The notes below the pieces were generated by a model. That model was not told the DNA's origin, made no database searches, and saw nothing but the letters and a program-made list of their open reading frames with translations. This document shows, piece after piece, positions 2,071 to 38,302 of a stretch of DNA of 64,000 nucleotides (positions within the stretch are counted from its first letter, which is position 1; each line of letters opens with the position of its first letter). Location of the stretch: assembly GCF_050920415.1 (NCBI RefSeq), contig NZ_CP169309.1; one strand, written 5' to 3'. This stretch comes from Escherichia coli. Its GTDB lineage: Bacteria; Pseudomonadota; Gammaproteobacteria; Enterobacterales; Enterobacteriaceae. The position numbers were made by a program, and so were the translations under genes.

Positions 2071-3576
2071 ATGCAAAACAAAAAATGGATTTTGACCTCG
2101 CTGGTAATGGCTTTTTTCGGCATCCCCATACTGGCGCAATTTTTGGCAGCGGTTATTGCCATGCTGGGGGCCGGGCTTGCCGCTATTCTTGAGGCTTGCA
2201 ATTTACTCTTTACGCCAACAATTTATCTTCTACTCAACGTCTTTATGCTGACGCTGGGGGCGATAATCCTATTTTTCTCTGGTCGCGTGTGGGCCGGTGA
2301 TAGCGCACCAGAAAACAGAGAAATAGCCGTCTGGCGGCAATGCTTTTTTCTTTTACCTGCACTGTTAACTCTGGTTGGCTGGATAATCACGCTACATCTG
2401 GCAGATTATCAATTTCGCCAAATGGGAGCAGGTTGGTTGGCAGAGCTTATGCTCCCCTGGCTGGGAGTTTTGTTAGTCTCATTAGTCGGAGGTGAGTTCT
2501 GGTGGATAGTCATTATACCCGTTGGTGCGCATATTAGTTTTTCACTGGGGTATGGCTGGCCGACCAGATATCCTTTAACCGGCACGTACGGGTTACGTTG
2601 CCGTAATTCCCTCCTGTTTATCCTTCTCATGCTTGGTTTTATCGCTGGTTATCAGGCTTATTTATATAAACAGATTAATCCCGGCGTCGGTGTGCGTGAA
2701 AATATTGATATCTGGGCCTGGCGACCCGATAAACTCAATAATCAACTGCCGCCACTGCGTGGTAAACCGCAAATTCAGTTTACACAAAACTGGCCGCGAC
2801 TCGATGGTGCTACAGCGGCGTACCCAATTTATGCTTCTGCCTTTTATGCGTTGAGCGTTATACCGGAAGATTTCCACACTTGGGAATATCTGGAGAACTC
2901 TCGTACCCCCGATGCATATAACAGGATTGTTAAAGGTGATGCCGATATTATTTTTGTGGCGCAACCTTCCGGTGGGCAGAAAAAACGCGCAGAGGAATCG
3001 GGCGTCACTTTGAACTACACTCCTTTCGCCCGTGAAGCATTCGTTTTCATCGTCAATGCGGATAACCCGGTTAATTCCCTGACTGACCAACAGGTGCGTG
3101 ACATCTTCAGTGGCGCAATTACCAACTGGCGCACGGTTGGCGGTAACGATCAGGAGATCCAGACCTGGCAACGCCCGGAAGACTCTGGCAGCCAGACAGT
3201 GATGCAATCGCAGGTCATGAAAAATGTCCGCATGATCTCGCCGCAGGAAACCGAAGTGGCAAGCATGATGGAGGGAATGATTAAAGTTGTTGCCGAATAC
3301 CGTAATACAAACAACTCAATAGGCTACACCTTCCGCTATTACGCAACACAAATGAACGCCGATAAAAATATAAAACTGCTAGCTATTAACGGTATTGCAC
3401 CGACTGCGGAAAATATTCGTAACGGCAAATATCCGTATATCGTCGATGCCTTTATGGTAACGCGGGAAAATACTACGTCAGAAACACAAAAACTGGTCGA
3501 ATGGTTTTTAACGCCGCAGGGGCAGAGTCTGGTGGAAGATGTGGGTTATGTACCGTTGCATACAACAATGAAATAA
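2071..3576 (+). CDS. Fusion protein: N-terminal polytopic membrane domain + C-terminal PstS-like (PBP_like_2) periplasmic binding domain; function unknown
   Basis: ORF 2059..3576 (505 aa); ATG at 2071 is preferred (ggaaag RBS 5 nt upstream, TATAAT at 2036-2041), 2059 is the alternative. N-terminal ~230 aa has several hydrophobic helices; C-terminal ~270 aa carries the motif ...NSLTDQQVRDIFSGAITNWRTVGG... typical of phosphate-binding-protein-like domains. Domain call from motif memory, not HMM search. Confidence 0.75.
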   Translation: MQNKKWILTSLVMAFFGIPILAQFLAAVIAMLGAGLAAILEACNLLFTPTIYLLLNVFMLTLGAIILFFSGRVWAGDSAPENREIAVWRQCFFLLPALLTLVGWIITLHLADYQFRQMGAGWLAELMLPWLGVLLVSLVGGEFWWIVIIPVGAHISFSLGYGWPTRYPLTGTYGLRCRNSLLFILLMLGFIAGYQAYLYKQINPGVGVRENIDIWAWRPDKLNNQLPPLRGKPQIQFTQNWPRLDGATAAYPIYASAFYALSVIPEDFHTWEYLENSRTPDAYNRIVKGDADIIFVAQPSGGQKKRAEESGVTLNYTPFAREAFVFIVNADNPVNSLTDQQVRDIFSGAITNWRTVGGNDQEIQTWQRPEDSGSQTVMQSQVMKNVRMISPQETEVASMMEGMIKVVAEYRNTNNSIGYTFRYYATQMNADKNIKLLAINGIAPTAENIRNGKYPYIVDAFMVTRENTTSETQKLVEWFLTPQGQSLVEDVGYVPLHTTMK

Positions 3577-3601
3577 CTTTTGAGAGAACGGAATCAGCGC
3601 G

Positions 3602-4594
3602 ATGAATAAATTCATAGGCGTTTTACTGCTAGGTGCGGTTTTACTGGCGGGATGTGTCGACCGGGAAGGGTACTATAACAGCGTCAGGGAAGAAGAAAGC
3701 CATGGACTGACGTCTCTGCGGGGGCAACCAGAATTACGTTACAGCGATGATTGGTCAAGATGGCCGAGAGTGTACGGCGCTACAGCCTTATACCCGCTGT
3801 ATGCTTCCGCGTATTATGAATTAGTACCCGAGCCAAAAGATAAGGATCGAACCTCGCTGGCCTGGCAGGCGTATGGTTTGCAACAAACCCGAACAGCTGA
3901 AGCCTACGATAGTCTGATCAAGGTTACCGCGACGGTTATTTTTGTTGCACAACCGTCGGAAGGACAGAAAAAACGTGCAGAAGAAGCAGGCGTTAAACTG
4001 AAATATACCGCTTTCGCCCGCGAAGCCTTTGTCTTTATCGTTGATATCAAAAACCCGGTTAATTCACTTAGCGAACAGCAGGTCAAAGACATTTTTAGCG
4101 GTAAAGTGAGTCGCTGGAATAAAGTGGGCGGCGGTGACGAAAGTATAAAAGTCTGGCAGCGGCCAGAAGATTCTGGAAGCCAAACGGTTATGAAGGGACT
4201 GGTTATGCAAGATACTCCAATGCTGCCAGCCAAAAAATCCACTGTTATCGATCTTATGGGCAGTTTAATTACCGAAGTCGCCGACTACCAAAACACAACA
4301 TCTTCCATTGGATACACCTTCCACTATTACGTCACGCGTATGAATGACAATATGCTCAAAATGCGCAAACAGATCAAACTGCTGGCTATAAATGGCGTTG
4401 CACCTACAGAGGAAAATATCCGTAACGGCACTTATCCGTACATAATTGATGCTTATATGGTGACGCACGAAAACCCTACGCTGGAAACGCAGAAATTCGT
4501 CGACTGGTTTTTAAGCCCGCAGGGACAGCAATTGGTAGAGGATGTGGGCTATGTGCCGATTCATGACGCATCATACGAATCATCAGTGCAATAA
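3602..4594 (+). CDS. Lipoprotein with PstS-like (PBP_like_2) binding domain; paralogue of the C-terminal domain of the upstream gene
   Basis: 330-aa ORF; N-terminal signal peptide with lipobox LLAGC; long colinear similarity to residues ~240-505 of the upstream protein (e.g. IFVAQPSEGQKKRAEEAGV / IFVAQPSGGQKKRAEESGV; WQRPEDSGSQTVM in both). Confidence 0.8.
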   Translation: MNKFIGVLLLGAVLLAGCVDREGYYNSVREEESHGLTSLRGQPELRYSDDWSRWPRVYGATALYPLYASAYYELVPEPKDKDRTSLAWQAYGLQQTRTAEAYDSLIKVTATVIFVAQPSEGQKKRAEEAGVKLKYTAFAREAFVFIVDIKNPVNSLSEQQVKDIFSGKVSRWNKVGGGDESIKVWQRPEDSGSQTVMKGLVMQDTPMLPAKKSTVIDLMGSLITEVADYQNTTSSIGYTFHYYVTRMNDNMLKMRKQIKLLAINGVAPTEENIRNGTYPYIIDAYMVTHENPTLETQKFVDWFLSPQGQQLVEDVGYVPIHDASYESSVQ

Positions 4595-5196
4595 TGATGA
4601 ATAAAATCAGACTTTATATTCCTCCGTTAATTCTTGGTTTTTTTATTGTGCCGTTGTTGGTGTGGCCGACGGTGGTTGCGCTGGCTGCTTCTGTTATCAC
4701 GCTGAGTTTTCTGGGAGAGATACTGTTCTCTATCCCGCTCATGATCAGGCATATTTCGCTTCTGCAATTACAACTATGGTTATCGGCTGAATATGCGCTT
4801 TTCTGCTGTGCAATGGTGGGCGTTGGTTGGCAATTTGCGCGCAGAACGCCACCTGAATCGAAAAGCAGACTGCATTGTTGGCTGGTATTTGCACCGGTTT
4901 ATTTCTGGTTGCTCCTGTGGAATATCATTTTCTATGTCGCGCCAGCGAATATTGCGTTGCTGGAGAATATGCGCAGTTTCTTTCTGACAGTTGTCTGGCT
5001 CCCACTAAATTTTTCACCATTTTGGTCCCAACCGTGGATTGACTTTGTCGGTCCAATAAGCGCACAGCTTGGTTTTGCGTTGGGATATTATTGCCAGTGG
5101 CGTAGCAAAAATAGAAGCCAGATACGGAAGTGGAGTGAGTGGGGAACGTGCCTGAGTTTTGTTACGTTGGGTATGATGGCGTGGGCTTTGCGGTAA
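4594..5196 (+). CDS. Polytopic membrane protein, homologous to the N-terminal membrane domain of the 2071..3576 protein
   Basis: 200-aa ORF; start overlaps the previous stop (TAATG); hydrophobic segments; local similarity to the upstream fusion protein (MMNKIRLYIPPLILGFF vs MQNKKWILTSLVMAFFG; VGPISAQLGFALGYYCQW vs VGAHISFSLGYGW). Confidence 0.7.
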   Translation: MMNKIRLYIPPLILGFFIVPLLVWPTVVALAASVITLSFLGEILFSIPLMIRHISLLQLQLWLSAEYALFCCAMVGVGWQFARRTPPESKSRLHCWLVFAPVYFWLLLWNIIFYVAPANIALLENMRSFFLTVVWLPLNFSPFWSQPWIDFVGPISAQLGFALGYYCQWRSKNRSQIRKWSEWGTCLSFVTLGMMAWALR

Positions 5197-5248
5197 TTCC
5201 CTGACTCAAAAAGTAGGTCAGATTGTTGACAAAGTGCGCTTTGTTCAT

Positions 5249-6626
<1,378 letters not shown>

Positions 6627-33543: not shown

Positions 33544-35612
<2,069 letters not shown>

Positions 35613-35614
35613 AT

Positions 35615-35649
35615 AAAACGGGAGGAGAAGGAGCCTCCTGTTTTATTTT
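35615..35649 (+). terminator. Rho-independent terminator after envZ
   Basis: aaaacgggagg-agaagga-gcctcctgtttt hairpin followed by ttttatttt. Confidence 0.65.
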
Positions 35650-35772
35650 GTGCACTCAGTATCTACTGAATGAATACGGTTTCAGACATCGGCACCATAC
35701 GAAGTAAAGTGTACTGTAAGCTGATTGCAGGCTAGCGTATCCTGATTAGTAAAGGCACACTAAAGGAATAGC

Positions 35773-37059
35773 TTGATGCAACTTACCAACGAAGAACAAG
35801 CACAGATTGCTCGTATAAAAGAAAAAATCCCACGCATTGCCGCACTGGATCCTGAATGTAAGTTATTCGGTTCTGAAGGTTGGAAATATCAATGGCCGAA
35901 GCCTGCCAGCGAGGCGGAAATAGCTTCCTGGGAGAAAAAACATAGCGTCACTTTGCCACGGGAATATCGAATTTTTCTTCGCTATATCGCTAATGGCGGT
36001 CCGGCACATGCCTACGGTCTTGAATCTTTAGGCGGTACAGATATTTATGGCGATATAACAAAAGAAAGCCCTGTACCGCTTTATATGACGCAGCAGGATG
36101 TTGATGTGTTGAATGCTGGCCGTACAGAAGATGATGAAGAATATAGTTTTTTTGACGGCGCATTGACCATTCTCACCCTGGGATGTACTTATGATATTTG
36201 CCTGGTGGTGACGGGGCAGTATCGCGGAAGGTTAATGCTGACTGATGGTGATGAAGATTATCCGTTTGATTTTATATATGATAAAAATTTCCTCAACTGG
36301 TATGAACGCTGGCTGGACGATTTTATTGCTGGCATGAGTATGAAGGGTTTCGATAGAAGTTTGCCAGGAACGCAAATTCAACTGCGTGAGTGGTTTTTAA
36401 CTGAGAAAATCCCGGATTTACGTAGATCCATTTTATTCTCGCTATGCCGTTTTCCACAGATAGAACCCGAAACTTTTGCCCTTTGGGAACATGTTTGCCG
36501 CACAGAGAATGATAAAGAATTGTGTGAAGAGGCATTCACAAGATTACGCCAAAAAAAAGGTTCTTGTGCTGCAGATATTTTTCGACTCTATTTTACAATG
36601 CCAGGTGAATTACGTGATATTGCTATTAAAGATCTCCGTTTTGCCTGTAGAGATAGTGTGGTGAATATTGAGGATTATATTCATTCACTGTTAATAATAA
36701 TGCCTGAACTTGACGATGACACTCTATCCTCAGCTGTCTTTGCTATACGAGAAACAGAGTATAATAAATATGATACTTTTCTGCCGCTTCTCGAACGTAT
36801 CACTGATGACCGTCAGCAAACATTATTGTGGGCGATGAGTAAGGCGCCTGATTTCAATGAAAGCCGAGGATTCGTTGAGTTGGTATTACCGCTTTTTGCA
36901 TCATCAAAGATGGAGAATGTAAGGAAGGCTATTTTGTTGCTCATTGAAGTTAAAGATAATCGTATTCCACCATTGGTTGATGAAGCTGCAACTCGTTTCC
37001 CTGAACTGACCATTTTACGAGAAAACTACTATCTCAGGACGTGGGGACATAAGCCATAA
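35773..37059 (+). CDS. SMI1/KNR4 (SUKH-1)-like domain protein with C-terminal alpha-helical repeat region; immunity-protein-like; function unknown
   Basis: 428-aa ORF in a low-GC insert. N-terminal region has SUKH hallmarks: W..E.K....LP.EY..FL....NGG (ASEAEIASWEKKHSVTLPREYRIFLRYIANGG) and the distal FL.WYERWLDDFI motif. Domain call from motif memory, not HMM search. Confidence 0.7.
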   Translation: MMQLTNEEQAQIARIKEKIPRIAALDPECKLFGSEGWKYQWPKPASEAEIASWEKKHSVTLPREYRIFLRYIANGGPAHAYGLESLGGTDIYGDITKESPVPLYMTQQDVDVLNAGRTEDDEEYSFFDGALTILTLGCTYDICLVVTGQYRGRLMLTDGDEDYPFDFIYDKNFLNWYERWLDDFIAGMSMKGFDRSLPGTQIQLREWFLTEKIPDLRRSILFSLCRFPQIEPETFALWEHVCRTENDKELCEEAFTRLRQKKGSCAADIFRLYFTMPGELRDIAIKDLRFACRDSVVNIEDYIHSLLIIMPELDDDTLSSAVFAIRETEYNKYDTFLPLLERITDDRQQTLLWAMSKAPDFNESRGFVELVLPLFASSKMENVRKAILLLIEVKDNRIPPLVDEAATRFPELTILRENYYLRTWGHKP

Positions 37060-37096
37060 ATTAATGGTTCAGAAATGATCTAACGCGGAGAAAAAT

Positions 37097-37627
37097 ATGA
37101 TCAGGGAACATATTCAGCAAGCGATAAATAATAGGTTAGCATTTGATGGCCCATTCAATGTTGTTCCTGAACCTGCAAGCACTGCGTTTGATGGCCGGAT
37201 CCCGACATTGAAAAACGGTGTCTGGCAGAAGGCCAGCCCTATGTTGCAGGCGCGTTTTGCACATTGTGGACGTTGGTTAAGCGCTACACATGGAAGCTGG
37301 CTAAGTATAAGTGACATGGAAACGCTTTGGCAGGAACACATAGAAGATACGTTTCTTGATGAAATCAAAATGAATGCTGTAGCTTCAAGTGATAATTGGG
37401 ATAACCATGCCTTGGGACTATTTCGTTCTCATCGCCTGTCACTTTTTGCCGGTAGTGATTACAGTTATGAAATGGTTTTTCTCCTTTGGCTAGATAGTAC
37501 CGTTGAGCCAGAGGTCTGGGTTTATGACTGCAATGGGGAATCACGTTATAAAGATCTTAATGATTACCTGAATGCATATATTAATGATGACGTAAGCGCC
37601 TGTGAGCGCTCCTGGCGAGTAGAATGA
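37097..37627 (+). CDS. Hypothetical protein, possibly a second SUKH-like immunity-type protein
   Basis: 176-aa ORF 37 bp after the previous gene; C-terminus (EVWVYDCNGESRYKDLNDYLNAYIND) resembles SUKH C-terminal motifs; weak assignment. Confidence 0.6.
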   Translation: MIREHIQQAINNRLAFDGPFNVVPEPASTAFDGRIPTLKNGVWQKASPMLQARFAHCGRWLSATHGSWLSISDMETLWQEHIEDTFLDEIKMNAVASSDNWDNHALGLFRSHRLSLFAGSDYSYEMVFLLWLDSTVEPEVWVYDCNGESRYKDLNDYLNAYINDDVSACERSWRVE

Positions 37628-38250
37628 ATAGCCCCCCTTGCCCCTTTGATCCACAAACCGCACATTACCTCGGTACAGTGCAAATCCACTACAGCCCAAC
37701 CACCTTCAACGCTGCCGTTAAGCATTATACCTGTTACATTAAAAAGCGTTTTAAAGGGTTTAAATGGGGAATTGGAACCGCTGGCTTATTGGCTATATTG
37801 CCCATGATCCCACAATGGTTGAAACCTTCTCATGACTTTAAACTCAACGCAATCAGTACGTTAATTCTTCTATTAATGTTGCCACTCCTCTTATCAATGT
37901 TCCTGTTAATCAGCAGAAGAATTAACGATTTTAAGTCAAAAACAAAGCAAGTTACTTTTACGAAACCCGTGCGTTATGCGTTTTATTTCGAGGGGATTGT
38001 TTTTTATGAATCTCATCAGCAGGGCATACTTCGCTGGGAAGATTTGTATAGCATTGACTATGAAGAAGATTATTTGTGGCTTTTTCTGCATTTACCGAAG
38101 AGTTTTCCCAGAGAAGCGACGAAAGCGTTTTGCGATATTTTCATTCCCGCCAGCGCGATAAAAGCGCAGCCTGAACTGGATACGTTTTTTCGTGAAACAC
38201 GCCACTCGCTGGATTATCTGTTTGTCCCGTTTAATTCTGACAGAAAATAA
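37624..38250 (+). CDS. Hypothetical two-TM membrane protein (YcxB-like architecture?)
   Basis: 208-aa ORF; start overlaps the upstream stop (ATGA); two adjacent hydrophobic helices (WGIGTAGLLAILPMIPQWL, ISTLILLLMLPLLLSMFLLI) followed by a ~100-aa soluble domain. Confidence 0.6.
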   Translation: MNSPPCPFDPQTAHYLGTVQIHYSPTTFNAAVKHYTCYIKKRFKGFKWGIGTAGLLAILPMIPQWLKPSHDFKLNAISTLILLLMLPLLLSMFLLISRRINDFKSKTKQVTFTKPVRYAFYFEGIVFYESHQQGILRWEDLYSIDYEEDYLWLFLHLPKSFPREATKAFCDIFIPASAIKAQPELDTFFRETRHSLDYLFVPFNSDRK

Positions 38251-38285
38251 AAAATCCCCCGTATCTGGTGAAACGGGGGATTTCG
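38251..38285. terminator. Bidirectional rho-independent terminator (end of accessory cassette and of pck)
   Basis: aaatcccccgt-atctggtga-aacgggggattt: perfect 11-bp stem flanked by A-run and T-run. Confidence 0.7.
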
Positions 38286-38302
38286 TCGCTTAACTTATCG
38301 GA

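What the first reader, a model, noticed from the sequence alone, without database searches (positions are those of the whole stretch)
35650..38290. Low-GC three-gene cassette between envZ and pck: SUKH-like proteins plus a 2-TM protein, with no toxin gene
envZ and pck are, to my recollection, separated by under 100 bp in K-12; here about 2.6 kb sits between them, bounded on both sides by strong hairpin terminators. The insert is visibly AT-rich. It has three co-oriented, tightly spaced ORFs (37-bp gap, then ATGA overlap), suggesting one operon. ORF A starts with an SMI1/KNR4 (SUKH-1)-type domain followed by ~220 aa of helical-repeat-like sequence. ORF B has a SUKH-like C-terminus. ORF C is a two-TM protein with a soluble C-terminal domain. 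SUKH proteins are classically immunity proteins for nuclease or deaminase toxins of polymorphic toxin systems (CDI, Rhs, T6SS), yet no toxin, Rhs, CdiA or VgrG fragment is adjacent. This could be an orphan immunity island or a self-contained system of unknown function.
Basis: partly seen in the sequence, partly recalled or inferred. Interest (0 to 1): 0.8.

Follow-up and report, generated by a model that had tools for sequence, protein, structure and literature searches.

The report
Orphan toxin-immunity gene islet
A rare 2.7-kb insert between envZ and pck in this E. coli carries two antidote ("immunity") genes against toxins that other bacteria inject, without the toxins, plus a membrane protein of unknown role; this is a known kind of defensive cargo, not a new system.

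Summary
A 2.69-kb low-GC insert replaces the 75-bp K-12 envZ-pck spacer. It carries three co-oriented, tightly packed ORFs between two hairpin terminators, and no toxin gene lies in the 64-kb window. It occurs in 18 of 5426 complete E. coli genomes.

- **ORF A** is a SUKH-1 (SMI1/KNR4) domain fused to HEAT-like repeats. Its relatives are solo insertions between housekeeping genes.
- **ORF B** has no Pfam match but folds as a SUKH domain. In seven species, plus 70 E. coli genomes, its relatives lie 5-20 bp downstream of T6SS Rhs proteins that share one uncharacterised ~126-aa C-terminal toxin domain. This is the canonical immunity position. In Bacteroidales, relatives sit in integrase-headed arrays of small genes. 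None of the 69 toxin-carrying E. coli genomes I could list carries the island, so ORF B is an orphan immunity gene.
- **ORF C** is a divergent YcxB-family protein (two TM helices plus a cytoplasmic PH-like domain). It is always the gene next to pck at this site in Escherichia, Salmonella and relatives, while the upstream cargo varies. Its function is unknown.

Verdict: a small orphan (poly)immunity locus at an integration hotspot, a new member of a known kind. The three genes are not a conserved self-contained system.

The parts
35611..35648 (.). envZ terminator hairpin, kept from the K-12 arrangement; it marks the left edge of the insert
   Evidence: Inverted repeat I2; terminator scan; aligned by eye with the K-12 spacer
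35649..38302 (+). Low-GC insert (~2.65 kb) that replaces ~45 bp of the K-12 envZ-pck spacer
   Evidence: GC 0.36-0.45; K-12 gap is 75 bp; present in 18/5426 genomes
35776..37059 (+). ORF A, 427 aa: N-terminal SUKH-1 domain plus C-terminal HEAT-like repeats; candidate two-domain ('polyimmunity') protein
   Evidence: Pfam SMI1_KNR4 2.7e-6 and SUKH_6 3.4e-5; PGAP name 'SMI1/KNR4 family protein'; family alignment A5
35902..36282 (+). SUKH-1 domain of ORF A (aa 44-170 in the numbering from the TTG start)
36550..37056 (+). HEAT-like helical repeats of ORF A (approximate limits)
   Evidence: Family profile positions ~270-428 match alphaRep/HEAT proteins, E 7.8e-9; PF13646 HEAT_2 is precomputed on two relatives
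37097..37627 (+). ORF B, 176 aa: single SUKH-fold domain from an unnamed immunity family that is cognate to one Rhs C-terminal toxin family; here it is orphan
37624..38250 (+). ORF C, 208 aa: divergent YcxB-family inner-membrane protein, translationally coupled to ORF B through an ATGA overlap
37753..37944 (+). Two predicted transmembrane helices of ORF C (aa 44-66 and 76-107)
   Evidence: Secondary structure of the model; hydrophobic stretches visible in the alignments
37969..38220 (+). PH-like (YcxB C-terminal) domain of ORF C, predicted cytoplasmic, with the conserved Y..FY.EG...HQ.G..W.DF...IIP motif
38252..38283 (.). Bidirectional terminator hairpin shared by ORF C and the convergent pck gene
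   Evidence: Inverted repeat I4; conserved in all locus variants

Best explanation
The insert is a small orphan (poly)immunity locus sitting in an integration hotspot between envZ and pck. It most likely works as follows.

1. The three genes are made from one transcript. This is inferred from the 37-bp gap, the ATGA overlap and the single terminator at each end.
2. ORF B is a cytoplasmic SUKH-fold protein. It binds and blocks an incoming Rhs C-terminal toxin of one particular, still uncharacterised family (consensus AGCASVD..LSIKNKF..HVADWN..GGSMTRQ..GHTPDVGWGG..VNSYIGGATQA). Neighbouring bacteria deliver this toxin with a type VI secretion system (VgrG-DcrB-PAAR/Rhs). The attackers include about 1.3% of E. 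coli strains, which carry the toxin with their own cognate immunity gene.
3. ORF A is a SUKH-1 domain fused to HEAT-like repeats. Both are recognised classes of immunity domain. It is predicted to neutralise a second, unidentified toxin.
4. ORF C is a YcxB-family membrane protein with a cytoplasmic PH-like domain. It is the resident gene of this site, and variable immunity cargo has accumulated upstream of it. Its own role is unknown, and I do not count it as shown immunity.

Shown here: the folds and domains, the gene-neighbourhood linkage of the ORF B family to one toxin family, the absence of that toxin from island carriers, rarity, purifying selection, and variability of the locus. Inferred: actual binding and protection, co-transcription, and any function of ORF A and ORF C.
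For: **ORF B**
- Relatives at 46-57% identity lie 5-20 bp downstream of Rhs genes in Pectobacterium parmentieri (behind Hcp-VgrG-DcrB-PAAR/Rhs), P. zantedeschiae, Azovibrio, Serratia rubidaea, Lonsdalea, Aggregatibacter and Burkholderia turbans. All seven Rhs proteins end in the same ~126-aa domain after the DPxGL motif, with 81% mean column identity.
- 70 of 5426 E. coli genomes carry VgrG-DcrB-Rhs with this C-terminal domain, followed by a 176-aa gene that is 55% identical to ORF B.
- 69 of those 70 accessions were listed, and none is among the 18 island genomes.
- ORF B keeps all 34 invariant positions of its family.
- Relatives also sit in toxin-free arrays: integrase-headed small-gene arrays in Bacteroides and Parabacteroides, and beside a SUKH_6 gene in Corticimicrobacter.

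**ORF A**
- Pfam SUKH-1 and SUKH_6 and HEAT-like repeats.
- Zhang et al. 2012 list HEAT repeats as an immunity class and describe SUKH fusions as 'polyimmunity proteins' (PMC3482391).

**Locus**
- The features match their definition of a polyimmunity locus: same orientation, tiny gaps, no toxin gene interspersed, and content that differs between strains.
- The Salmonella version of the site carries CdiI_5 immunity genes instead.

**Selection and precedent**
- dN/dS is 0.15-0.45, so the genes are maintained but evolve faster than the flanking core genes at 0.00-0.07.
- Orphan SUKH immunity proteins only 37-39% identical to the cognate one still protect (bioRxiv 10.1101/2025.05.03.651265).
Against: - Nothing here tests binding or protection.
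- ORF B is only ~55% identical to any immunity gene seen next to the toxin, so its specificity may differ or be lost.
- ORF A relatives were never found beside a toxin: four contexts were examined and all were solo or in mixed variable regions.
- ORF C belongs to a family with no known function and no known link to toxins.
- Decay occurs in relatives. ORF A is split in two E. albertii genomes, and ORF B is reduced to an 87-aa remnant in Enterobacteriaceae G50.
- No promoter-like site was found between the envZ terminator and ORF A.
- The toxin search in E. coli was at DNA level (about 65-70% identity or better), so a very divergent toxin in island strains would be missed.
Confidence: 0.7

Rival explanations
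1. The three genes form one self-contained functional system, for example an anti-phage or envelope-stress module. In this reading the soluble SUKH/HEAT proteins sense a signal or regulate, and the YcxB-type membrane protein is the effector.
For: - The operon-like packing is tight and includes translational coupling.
- ORF C is always coupled to whatever gene lies upstream of it at this site.
- A 140-aa helical domain ('HEAT-N') is fused to the YcxB module in both orders at this site, which suggests a soluble partner for ORF C.
- ORF C gives a weak PADLOC hit to the Pycsar membrane effector PycTM (E 0.0036).
Against: - A, B and C each occur without the others. ORF A relatives are solo in Klebsiella, Superficieibacter and other E. 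coli. ORF B relatives sit behind Rhs toxins or in immunity arrays. ORF C occurs with CdiI_5 genes, with HEAT-N or nearly alone.
- No significant PADLOC, PHROG or NCBIfam family was found.
- There is no cyclase or other signal-generating enzyme.
- HEAT-N shows no detectable homology to ORF A.
Confidence: 0.1
2. The cassette is non-functional hitchhiking DNA: remnants of an old polymorphic-toxin locus that persist by drift at a permissive intergenic site.
For: - It is rare (0.33% of complete genomes).
- dN/dS is raised relative to the flanks.
- Relatives show pseudogenisation.
- No promoter-like site was found upstream.
Against: - All three ORFs are intact in 18 genomes from varied hosts at 98.9-100% identity.
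- dN/dS is 0.15-0.45, clearly below 1.
- ORF B retains every invariant residue of its family.
- Shine-Dalgarno sequences and coupled start codons are preserved.
- ORF C shows far lower synonymous divergence between Salmonella and E. coli (dS 0.22) than the flanking genes (0.49-0.84). This implies recent horizontal spread rather than passive decay.
Confidence: 0.12
3. The genes are immunity genes but not orphans. The cognate toxins would be encoded elsewhere in the same genomes, outside the 64-kb window, and the island protects against self or kin.
For: - The window covers only 64 kb of a 5.19-Mb genome.
- Rhs and CDI loci are often far from extra immunity copies.
- The E. coli toxin search was DNA-based.
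Against: The Rhs C-terminal domain linked to the ORF B family was found in 70 E. coli genomes. None of the 69 listed is an island carrier, and the exact-match strain N96 is not among them.
Confidence: 0.05

Closest known systems
Polyimmunity loci and polyimmunity proteins of polymorphic toxin systems (Zhang, Iyer, Aravind et al. 2011/2012; PMC3113570, PMC3482391)
   Same: - Tandem, co-oriented, tightly spaced immunity genes with no toxin gene between them.
- SUKH domains dominate.
- Content differs between strains of one species.
- A SUKH domain is fused to a second immunity-type domain (HEAT repeats are a listed immunity class).
   Different: - Only two recognisable immunity genes are present; 'extended' loci have four or more.
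- There is no adjacent recombinase.
- The third gene is a YcxB-family membrane protein, which is not in their immunity catalogue (no mention in the paper).
Acquired interbacterial defence (AID/rAID) orphan immunity arrays of Bacteroidales (Ross et al.; bioRxiv 10.1101/2025.05.03.651265)
   Same: - Orphan immunity genes, SUKH included, diverged from the toxin-linked cognates yet protective.
- ORF B relatives sit one or two genes after a tyrosine integrase, at the head of small-gene arrays, in Bacteroides sp. M10 and a Parabacteroides MAG.
   Different: - The E. coli islet has no recombinase and no repeats or attachment-like sequences.
- It is fixed at one chromosomal junction and is tiny.
Cognate Rhs toxin-immunity pairs of T6SS (VgrG-DcrB-PAAR/Rhs-immunity), e.g. 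E. coli 05-3629 and Pectobacterium parmentieri CP003415
   Same: ORF B is a homologue (55-56% identity, full length) of the gene in the immunity slot of these pairs.
   Different: In the window no Rhs, VgrG or toxin fragment lies upstream. ORF B belongs to a diverged clade seen only at the envZ-pck site (E. coli, E. albertii, Escherichia sp. MOD1-EC7003).
Tde1-Tdi1 (Ntox15 DNase with a DUF1851/SUKH-type immunity protein), PDB 8g0k and 6itw
   Different: There is no sequence-level relationship. The Rhs C-terminal domain linked to ORF B matches no Pfam family, Ntox15 included. Any HxxD-type similarity ('GHTPD') is seen by eye only.
YcxB family (Pfam PF14317); architecture like the 2TM-bPH proteins YdbS/DdE
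   Same: - ORF C has two TM helices followed by a PH-like domain.
- The Foldseek list is almost entirely YcxB proteins, and a 96%-identical UniProt entry is already named 'YcxB family protein'.
- YdbS/YdbT-type 2TM-PH proteins (DdE/DdF) are needed for export of a leaderless bacteriocin (PMC8657885). This is a loose precedent for a link to interbacterial antagonism.
   Different: - The window protein itself does not reach Pfam significance.
- Its subfamily is tiny: 15 clusters at 50% identity among 1.84 billion proteins.
- No YcxB protein has a known function.
- No homology to YdbS was shown here.
Orphan cdiA-CT/cdiI and orphan rhs-CT/immunity modules (Poole et al. 2011, PMC3150448)
   Same: Spare immunity genes are stockpiled away from a full-length toxin gene. 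The Salmonella form of this locus carries CdiI_5 genes and a 91-aa ORF between them.
   Different: Classical orphan modules keep the toxin-CT coding fragment in front of each immunity gene. The E. coli islet has no room for one: there are 127 bp upstream of ORF A and 37 bp between A and B.

Membership tests
SUKH superfamily (ORF A) | Significant match to a SUKH-clan profile (SMI1_KNR4/PF09346 or SUKH_6/PF14568) | tested here: met
   i-E 2.7e-6 and 3.4e-5 over aa 44-170
SUKH superfamily (ORF B) | Sequence-profile match to a SUKH-clan family | tested here: not met
   No Pfam hit for the protein. No NCBIfam hit. The family profile finds no PDB sequence.
SUKH superfamily (ORF B) | SUKH alpha+beta fold | tested here: met
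Immunity protein of a polymorphic (Rhs/T6SS) toxin (ORF B family) | Gene lies immediately downstream of, and co-oriented with, the toxin's variable C-terminal domain, and the same toxin domain recurs across taxa | tested here: met
   Seven loci from different genera plus E. coli 05-3629, with gaps of 5-20 bp and one shared CT family. This holds for the family, not for the window copy.
Immunity protein of a polymorphic toxin (ORF B, ORF A) | Binds and neutralises the toxin, protecting cells | not testable with these tools
   Needs co-expression, competition or binding assays
Orphan immunity gene | Cognate toxin absent from the locus and from the genome | tested here: met
   No toxin in the 64 kb. 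The toxin CT DNA is found in 70 E. coli genomes, and none of the 69 listed is an island carrier. Limit: the search was at DNA level.
Polyimmunity locus (Zhang et al. 2012) | Two or more tandem co-oriented immunity genes with short spacers, uninterrupted by toxin genes, varying between strains | tested here: met
   definition read. Only two genes are recognisable immunity genes, so this is a minimal locus, not an 'extended' one.
rAID system | Adjacent tyrosine recombinase heading the orphan-immunity array | tested here: not met
   No recombinase lies next to the insert and there are no flanking repeats. The feature is met only in Bacteroidales relatives.
YcxB family (ORF C) | Pfam PF14317 match at significance | tested here: inconclusive
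   No hit for the window protein. Weak hits in 4 of 15 family members, best i-E 4e-3.
YcxB family (ORF C) | Two TM helices followed by a YcxB/PH-like C-terminal domain | tested here: met
Pycsar (PycTM effector) | Significant PycTM match plus an adjacent pyrimidine cyclase | tested here: not met
   Only E 0.0036 over the TM region. There is no cyclase in the locus.
Mobile element (IS, integron cassette or prophage remnant) | Flanking direct or inverted repeats, a tRNA or att site, or a transposase/integrase | tested here: not met
   No phage family hit.

The most novel reading that the evidence does not exclude
The YcxB-type membrane protein is not a bystander. In this reading it is the core of a previously unrecognised membrane-anchored protective module, and the envZ-pck site is its dedicated locus. 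Its cytoplasmic PH-like domain would work with a soluble helical-repeat partner. Supporting this, the HEAT-N domain is fused to it in both orders, and a SUKH-HEAT protein is encoded upstream here. Immunity genes (SUKH, CdiI_5) would be captured in front of it because it tethers or positions immunity proteins at the inner membrane, where T6SS and CDI toxins enter. Alternatively, it may itself neutralise a membrane-acting toxin. This would give the first function to the YcxB family.
Probability: 0.1. Interest if true: 0.6.

Novelty: new member of a known kind. Interest (0 to 1): 0.35.

Why it matters
Orphan immunity genes help decide which strains survive contact-dependent warfare in the gut. 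This islet links an unannotated immunity family (ORF B) to an unannotated Rhs toxin domain carried by about 1.3% of complete E. coli genomes. The result is a directly testable attacker/resister pair within one species: 70 armed genomes against 18 that are shielded but unarmed.

The analysis also flags a toxin domain with no Pfam, NCBIfam or PDB counterpart. The same immunity family turns up in Proteobacteria and in Bacteroidales integrase-headed arrays, and the envZ-pck junction is a multi-state hotspot. The concept itself (orphan or polyimmunity loci with SUKH proteins) is well established, so the finding extends a catalogue rather than opening a new category.

Tried and rejected
- **Defence-system, phage and NCBI family libraries** on all three proteins and on the A30 fusion gave nothing significant. 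The only PADLOC hit was PycTM at E 0.0036, rejected because it covers the TM helices and no cyclase is present.
- **Sequence searches of the PDB** with ORF B and ORF C profiles found nothing.
- **Pfam, NCBIfam and PDB-sequence searches with the Rhs C-terminal toxin domain**, alone and as a profile, gave no credible hit. The I-CreI-derived match at E 0.0012 comes from two sub-threshold helical stretches and was disregarded.
- **Homology between HEAT-N and the C-terminus of ORF A**, and between ORF A and ORF B, was not detectable by BLASTP or hhalign.
- **A conserved A-B pairing outside Escherichia** was not found. The 170-aa gene after the Superficieibacter ORF A relative is unrelated to ORF B.
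- **Mobile-element signatures** (repeats, tRNA, Rfam) were absent.
- **Plasmid carriage**: ORF C had no hit, and ORF B had one partial hit in a Sphingomonas plasmid.
- **Literature**: searches for the toxin and immunity motifs, for a described envZ-pck hotspot and for a YcxB function found nothing relevant.
I did not repeat it with close sequences, since those are already known to sit at envZ-pck.
Full report
**1. What is in the sequence**

The window is E. coli chromosome (glgP ... greB-ompR-envZ-[insert]-pck-yhgE ... yhfW) and is 100% identical over the insert to strain N96.

Between the envZ stop (35612) and the pck stop (38303, minus strand) lie 2.69 kb carrying three plus-strand ORFs:
- ORF A, 35776-37059, 427 aa from the ATG that PGAP uses.
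- ORF B, 37097-37627, 176 aa.
- ORF C, 37624-38250, 208 aa.

The A-B gap is 37 bp and contains a GGAG eight bases before the ATG. B and C overlap as ATGA.

GC content is 0.36-0.45 across the insert, against 0.53-0.62 in envZ and 0.50-0.58 in pck.

A hairpin followed by a T-run sits at each end, at 35611-35648 and 38252-38283.

In K-12 the two genes are 75 bp apart. The window keeps the envZ terminator and then differs from K-12 right up to the pck stop.

There are no flanking repeats, tRNA genes or Rfam matches.

**2. Distribution and the nature of the site**

The insert is in 18 of 5426 complete E. coli genomes, at 98.9-100% identity and always chromosomal.

A junction probe shows 4073 genomes with the empty K-12-type junction and about 1350 with the junction split. 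Every sampled non-island split junction carries a RelE/ParE-NadS toxin-antitoxin pair. The envZ-pck spacer is thus a multi-state integration hotspot.

Related versions of the island exist at the same site:

| Organism (locus) | Content between envZ and pck |
|---|---|
| E. albertii | A-B-C plus the TA pair; ORF A is split in two strains |
| Escherichia sp. MOD1-EC7003 | standalone 143-aa helical protein ('HEAT-N'), then B, then C |
| E. coli A30 and Escherichia sp. E4742 | one 346-aa gene, HEAT-N fused to the ORF C module |
| Salmonella-like genome (P0073) | 365-aa gene with the reverse order, ORF C module then HEAT-N |
| Salmonella enterica | the HEAT-N::C gene interrupted between codons ...TAH and YLG... 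by a CdiI_5 gene, a 91-aa ORF and a truncated second CdiI_5 |
| Enterobacteriaceae G50 | an 87-aa internally deleted ORF B remnant, then C |

ORF C is the constant, pck-proximal element. What lies upstream of it varies.

Synonymous divergence of ORF C between the window and Salmonella is 0.22, against 0.84 for envZ and 0.49 for pck in the same pair. The module has therefore moved between genera more recently than the species split.

dN/dS is 0.15 for A, 0.36 for B and 0.24-0.45 for C, against 0.00-0.07 for the flanks. These are real genes that evolve fast.

**3. ORF A**

Pfam gives SMI1_KNR4 (2.7e-6, aa 44-153) and SUKH_6 (3.4e-5).

A profile of 17 family members matches HEAT-type alphaRep proteins over its last ~160 positions, with best E 7.8e-9. 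Two relatives carry precomputed PF13646 HEAT_2.

The family is small (20 clusters) and mostly enterobacterial. The examined relatives are solo genes wedged between housekeeping genes or sit in mixed variable regions:
- Klebsiella aerogenes and Superficieibacter.
- The yoaA-yoaB site of other E. coli.
- A variable region with SdpI, McrBC and IS66 in a Firmicute-like contig.

None is next to a toxin, to ORF B or to ORF C.

Zhang et al. list HEAT repeats as an immunity class. They describe SUKH fused to unrelated immunity domains as 'polyimmunity proteins' (PMC3482391). ORF A fits that description, but its target is unknown.

**4. ORF B**

There is no Pfam, NCBIfam, PADLOC, PHROG or PDB-sequence match.

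- Lin2918, PSPTO_5518, Syd, Atu4351 and 4iqn.

Gene context is decisive.
- In Pectobacterium parmentieri the 56%-identical homologue starts 20 bp after a 1423-aa PAAR-Rhs gene that follows hcp, vgrG and a DcrB-family gene.
- A scan of one genome per species found 20 further loci.
- Counting P. parmentieri, seven loci place the homologue 5-20 bp behind an Rhs gene or Rhs fragment: P. parmentieri, P. zantedeschiae, Azovibrio, Serratia rubidaea, Lonsdalea, Aggregatibacter and Burkholderia turbans.
- All seven Rhs proteins end, after the DPxGL cleavage motif, in the same ~126-aa domain.
- That domain has no Pfam, NCBIfam or credible PDB match.

In E. coli, 70 complete genomes carry VgrG-DcrB-Rhs with this domain, followed 12 bp later by a 176-aa gene that is 55% identical to ORF B.

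Across two listings I saw 69 of the 70 accessions, and none is one of the 18 island genomes. Toxin carriers and island carriers are therefore disjoint.

Elsewhere the family occurs in toxin-free arrays:
- After a tyrosine integrase at the head of small-gene arrays in Bacteroides sp. M10 and a Parabacteroides MAG, which is rAID-like.
- Beside a SUKH_6 gene in Corticimicrobacter.
- As the third gene of an array behind an Rhs with a different toxin domain in Caulobacter.

ORF B keeps all 34 invariant residues of the family.

A recent study shows that orphan SUKH immunity proteins only 37-39% identical to the cognate protein still bind and protect (bioRxiv 10.1101/2025.05.03.651265). A 55%-identical orphan is therefore plausibly active.

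**5. ORF C**

The model has pLDDT 74.5. It shows:
- an N-terminal strand and helix;
- two long hydrophobic helices (aa 44-66 and 76-107);
- a beta-rich domain (aa 116-175);
- a C-terminal helix.

Basic residues flank the cytoplasmic side of both TM helices, which puts both termini in the cytoplasm. This topology is an inference.

Foldseek against AFDB50 returns a list made almost entirely of 'YcxB family' or 'YcxB-like' proteins. It includes a 96%-identical E. coli entry that is already so named.

Pfam YcxB is only weakly seen, in 4 of 15 family members.

The subfamily is tiny: 15 clusters at 50% identity among 1.84 billion proteins. It has a conserved motif, Y..FY.EG...(E)PHQ.G..W.DF...IIP.

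A distant member in Superficieibacter is a solo gene after secF.

I found no paper that assigns a function to YcxB.

The nearest functional precedent is architectural only. The 2TM-PH proteins YdbS/YdbT and DdE/DdF are involved in handling a leaderless bacteriocin (PMC8657885).

ORF C is thus a member of a known family of unknown function. Its constant presence and its coupling to variable immunity cargo remain unexplained.

**6. Explanation and rivals**

The best reading (confidence about 0.7) is a minimal orphan/polyimmunity locus.
- ORF B neutralises incoming Rhs toxins of the family defined above.
- ORF A is a bivalent SUKH-HEAT immunity candidate for an unknown toxin.
- ORF C is the resident YcxB gene in front of which immunity cargo accumulates.

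The locus meets the published descriptive criteria for polyimmunity loci: same orientation, tiny spacers, no interspersed toxin gene and variation between strains.

The rivals are:
- A self-contained three-gene system (about 0.1). This is weakened by the independent occurrence of each gene, but kept alive by the two-way HEAT-N/YcxB fusions.
- Non-functional hitchhiking DNA (about 0.12). This is weakened by dN/dS below 1, intact ORFs and recent horizontal spread.
- Immunity to a self-encoded toxin elsewhere in the genome (about 0.05). This is weakened by the disjoint distribution.

**7. Novelty and verdict**

Orphan SUKH immunity genes are textbook for polymorphic toxin systems, and PGAP already names ORF A 'SMI1/KNR4 family protein'.

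What is new is modest:
- an unannotated immunity family tied to an unannotated Rhs toxin domain, with both present, in different strains, within E. coli;
- the same immunity family in Proteobacteria and in Bacteroidales arrays;
- a hotspot whose fixed element is a YcxB protein.

I rate this a new member of a known kind, with interest about 0.35. Nothing here is experimental. The co-expression and competition tests listed under next steps would settle the main claim.

Noticed in passing
window 35613-38302 site; loci L047, L048, L014: The envZ-pck junction has several states in E. coli. 4073/5426 genomes are empty as in K-12 and about 1350 are split. All five sampled non-island split junctions carry a RelE/ParE + NadS toxin-antitoxin pair. 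E. albertii has both the island and the TA pair.
   Followed up: partly
L015 4306-6618 (Salmonella enterica), L016: At the same site, a CdiI_5 gene (170 aa), a 91-aa ORF and a truncated second CdiI_5 are inserted inside the HEAT-N::YcxB gene, between codons ...TAH and YLG.... The YcxB protein now starts with residues derived from CdiI_5 (MPFGLKPVMTQ).
   Followed up: partly
L001 5566-6606 (E. coli A30); L042 8001-9098 (P0073): A 140-aa helical domain ('HEAT-N', with no family match) is fused to the YcxB module N-terminally in one lineage and C-terminally in another, and is a separate gene in Escherichia sp. MOD1-EC7003 (L019). Fusion in both orders suggests a functional partnership.
   Followed up: partly
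L040 2855-7909 (E. coli 05-3629); L003, L024, L033, L020, L021, L036, L034: A ~126-aa Rhs C-terminal toxin domain (AGCASVD...GHTPDVGWGG...VNSYIGGATQA) is conserved from Aggregatibacter to Burkholderia and occurs in 70 complete E. coli genomes. It has no Pfam, NCBIfam or PDB-sequence match, and its activity is unknown.
   Followed up: partly
L029 4145-8959; L031 1338-5323: In Bacteroides sp. M10 and a Parabacteroides MAG, ORF B relatives lie one or two genes after a tyrosine integrase at the head of arrays of small co-oriented genes. This layout is like rAID orphan-immunity arrays.
   Followed up: partly
L020 5331-7222 (Serratia rubidaea): An orphan Rhs-CT fragment (218 aa), the ORF B-family immunity gene and a second Rhs-CT fragment (212 aa, also with the DPxGL motif) lie in tandem. 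This is a classical orphan rhs array.
   Followed up: no
L010-L012 8001-9275 (other E. coli): A 424-aa relative of ORF A (40% identity) is a solo insertion between a DinG-family helicase gene (yoaA-like) and a RidA-family gene (yoaB-like). This is a second site where this SUKH-HEAT family lands in E. coli.
   Followed up: no
window 3338-6466: Two PstS-family phosphate-binding protein genes and a 200-aa hypothetical gene lie between glgP and glpD. From memory, K-12 has only a pseudogene remnant (yzgL) there; I did not check this.
   Followed up: no
window 37624-38250 versus L015 6001-6618: ORF C is closer between E. coli and Salmonella at synonymous sites (dS 0.22) than the flanking envZ (0.84) and pck (0.49). 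This indicates recent inter-genus transfer of the module.
   Followed up: yes
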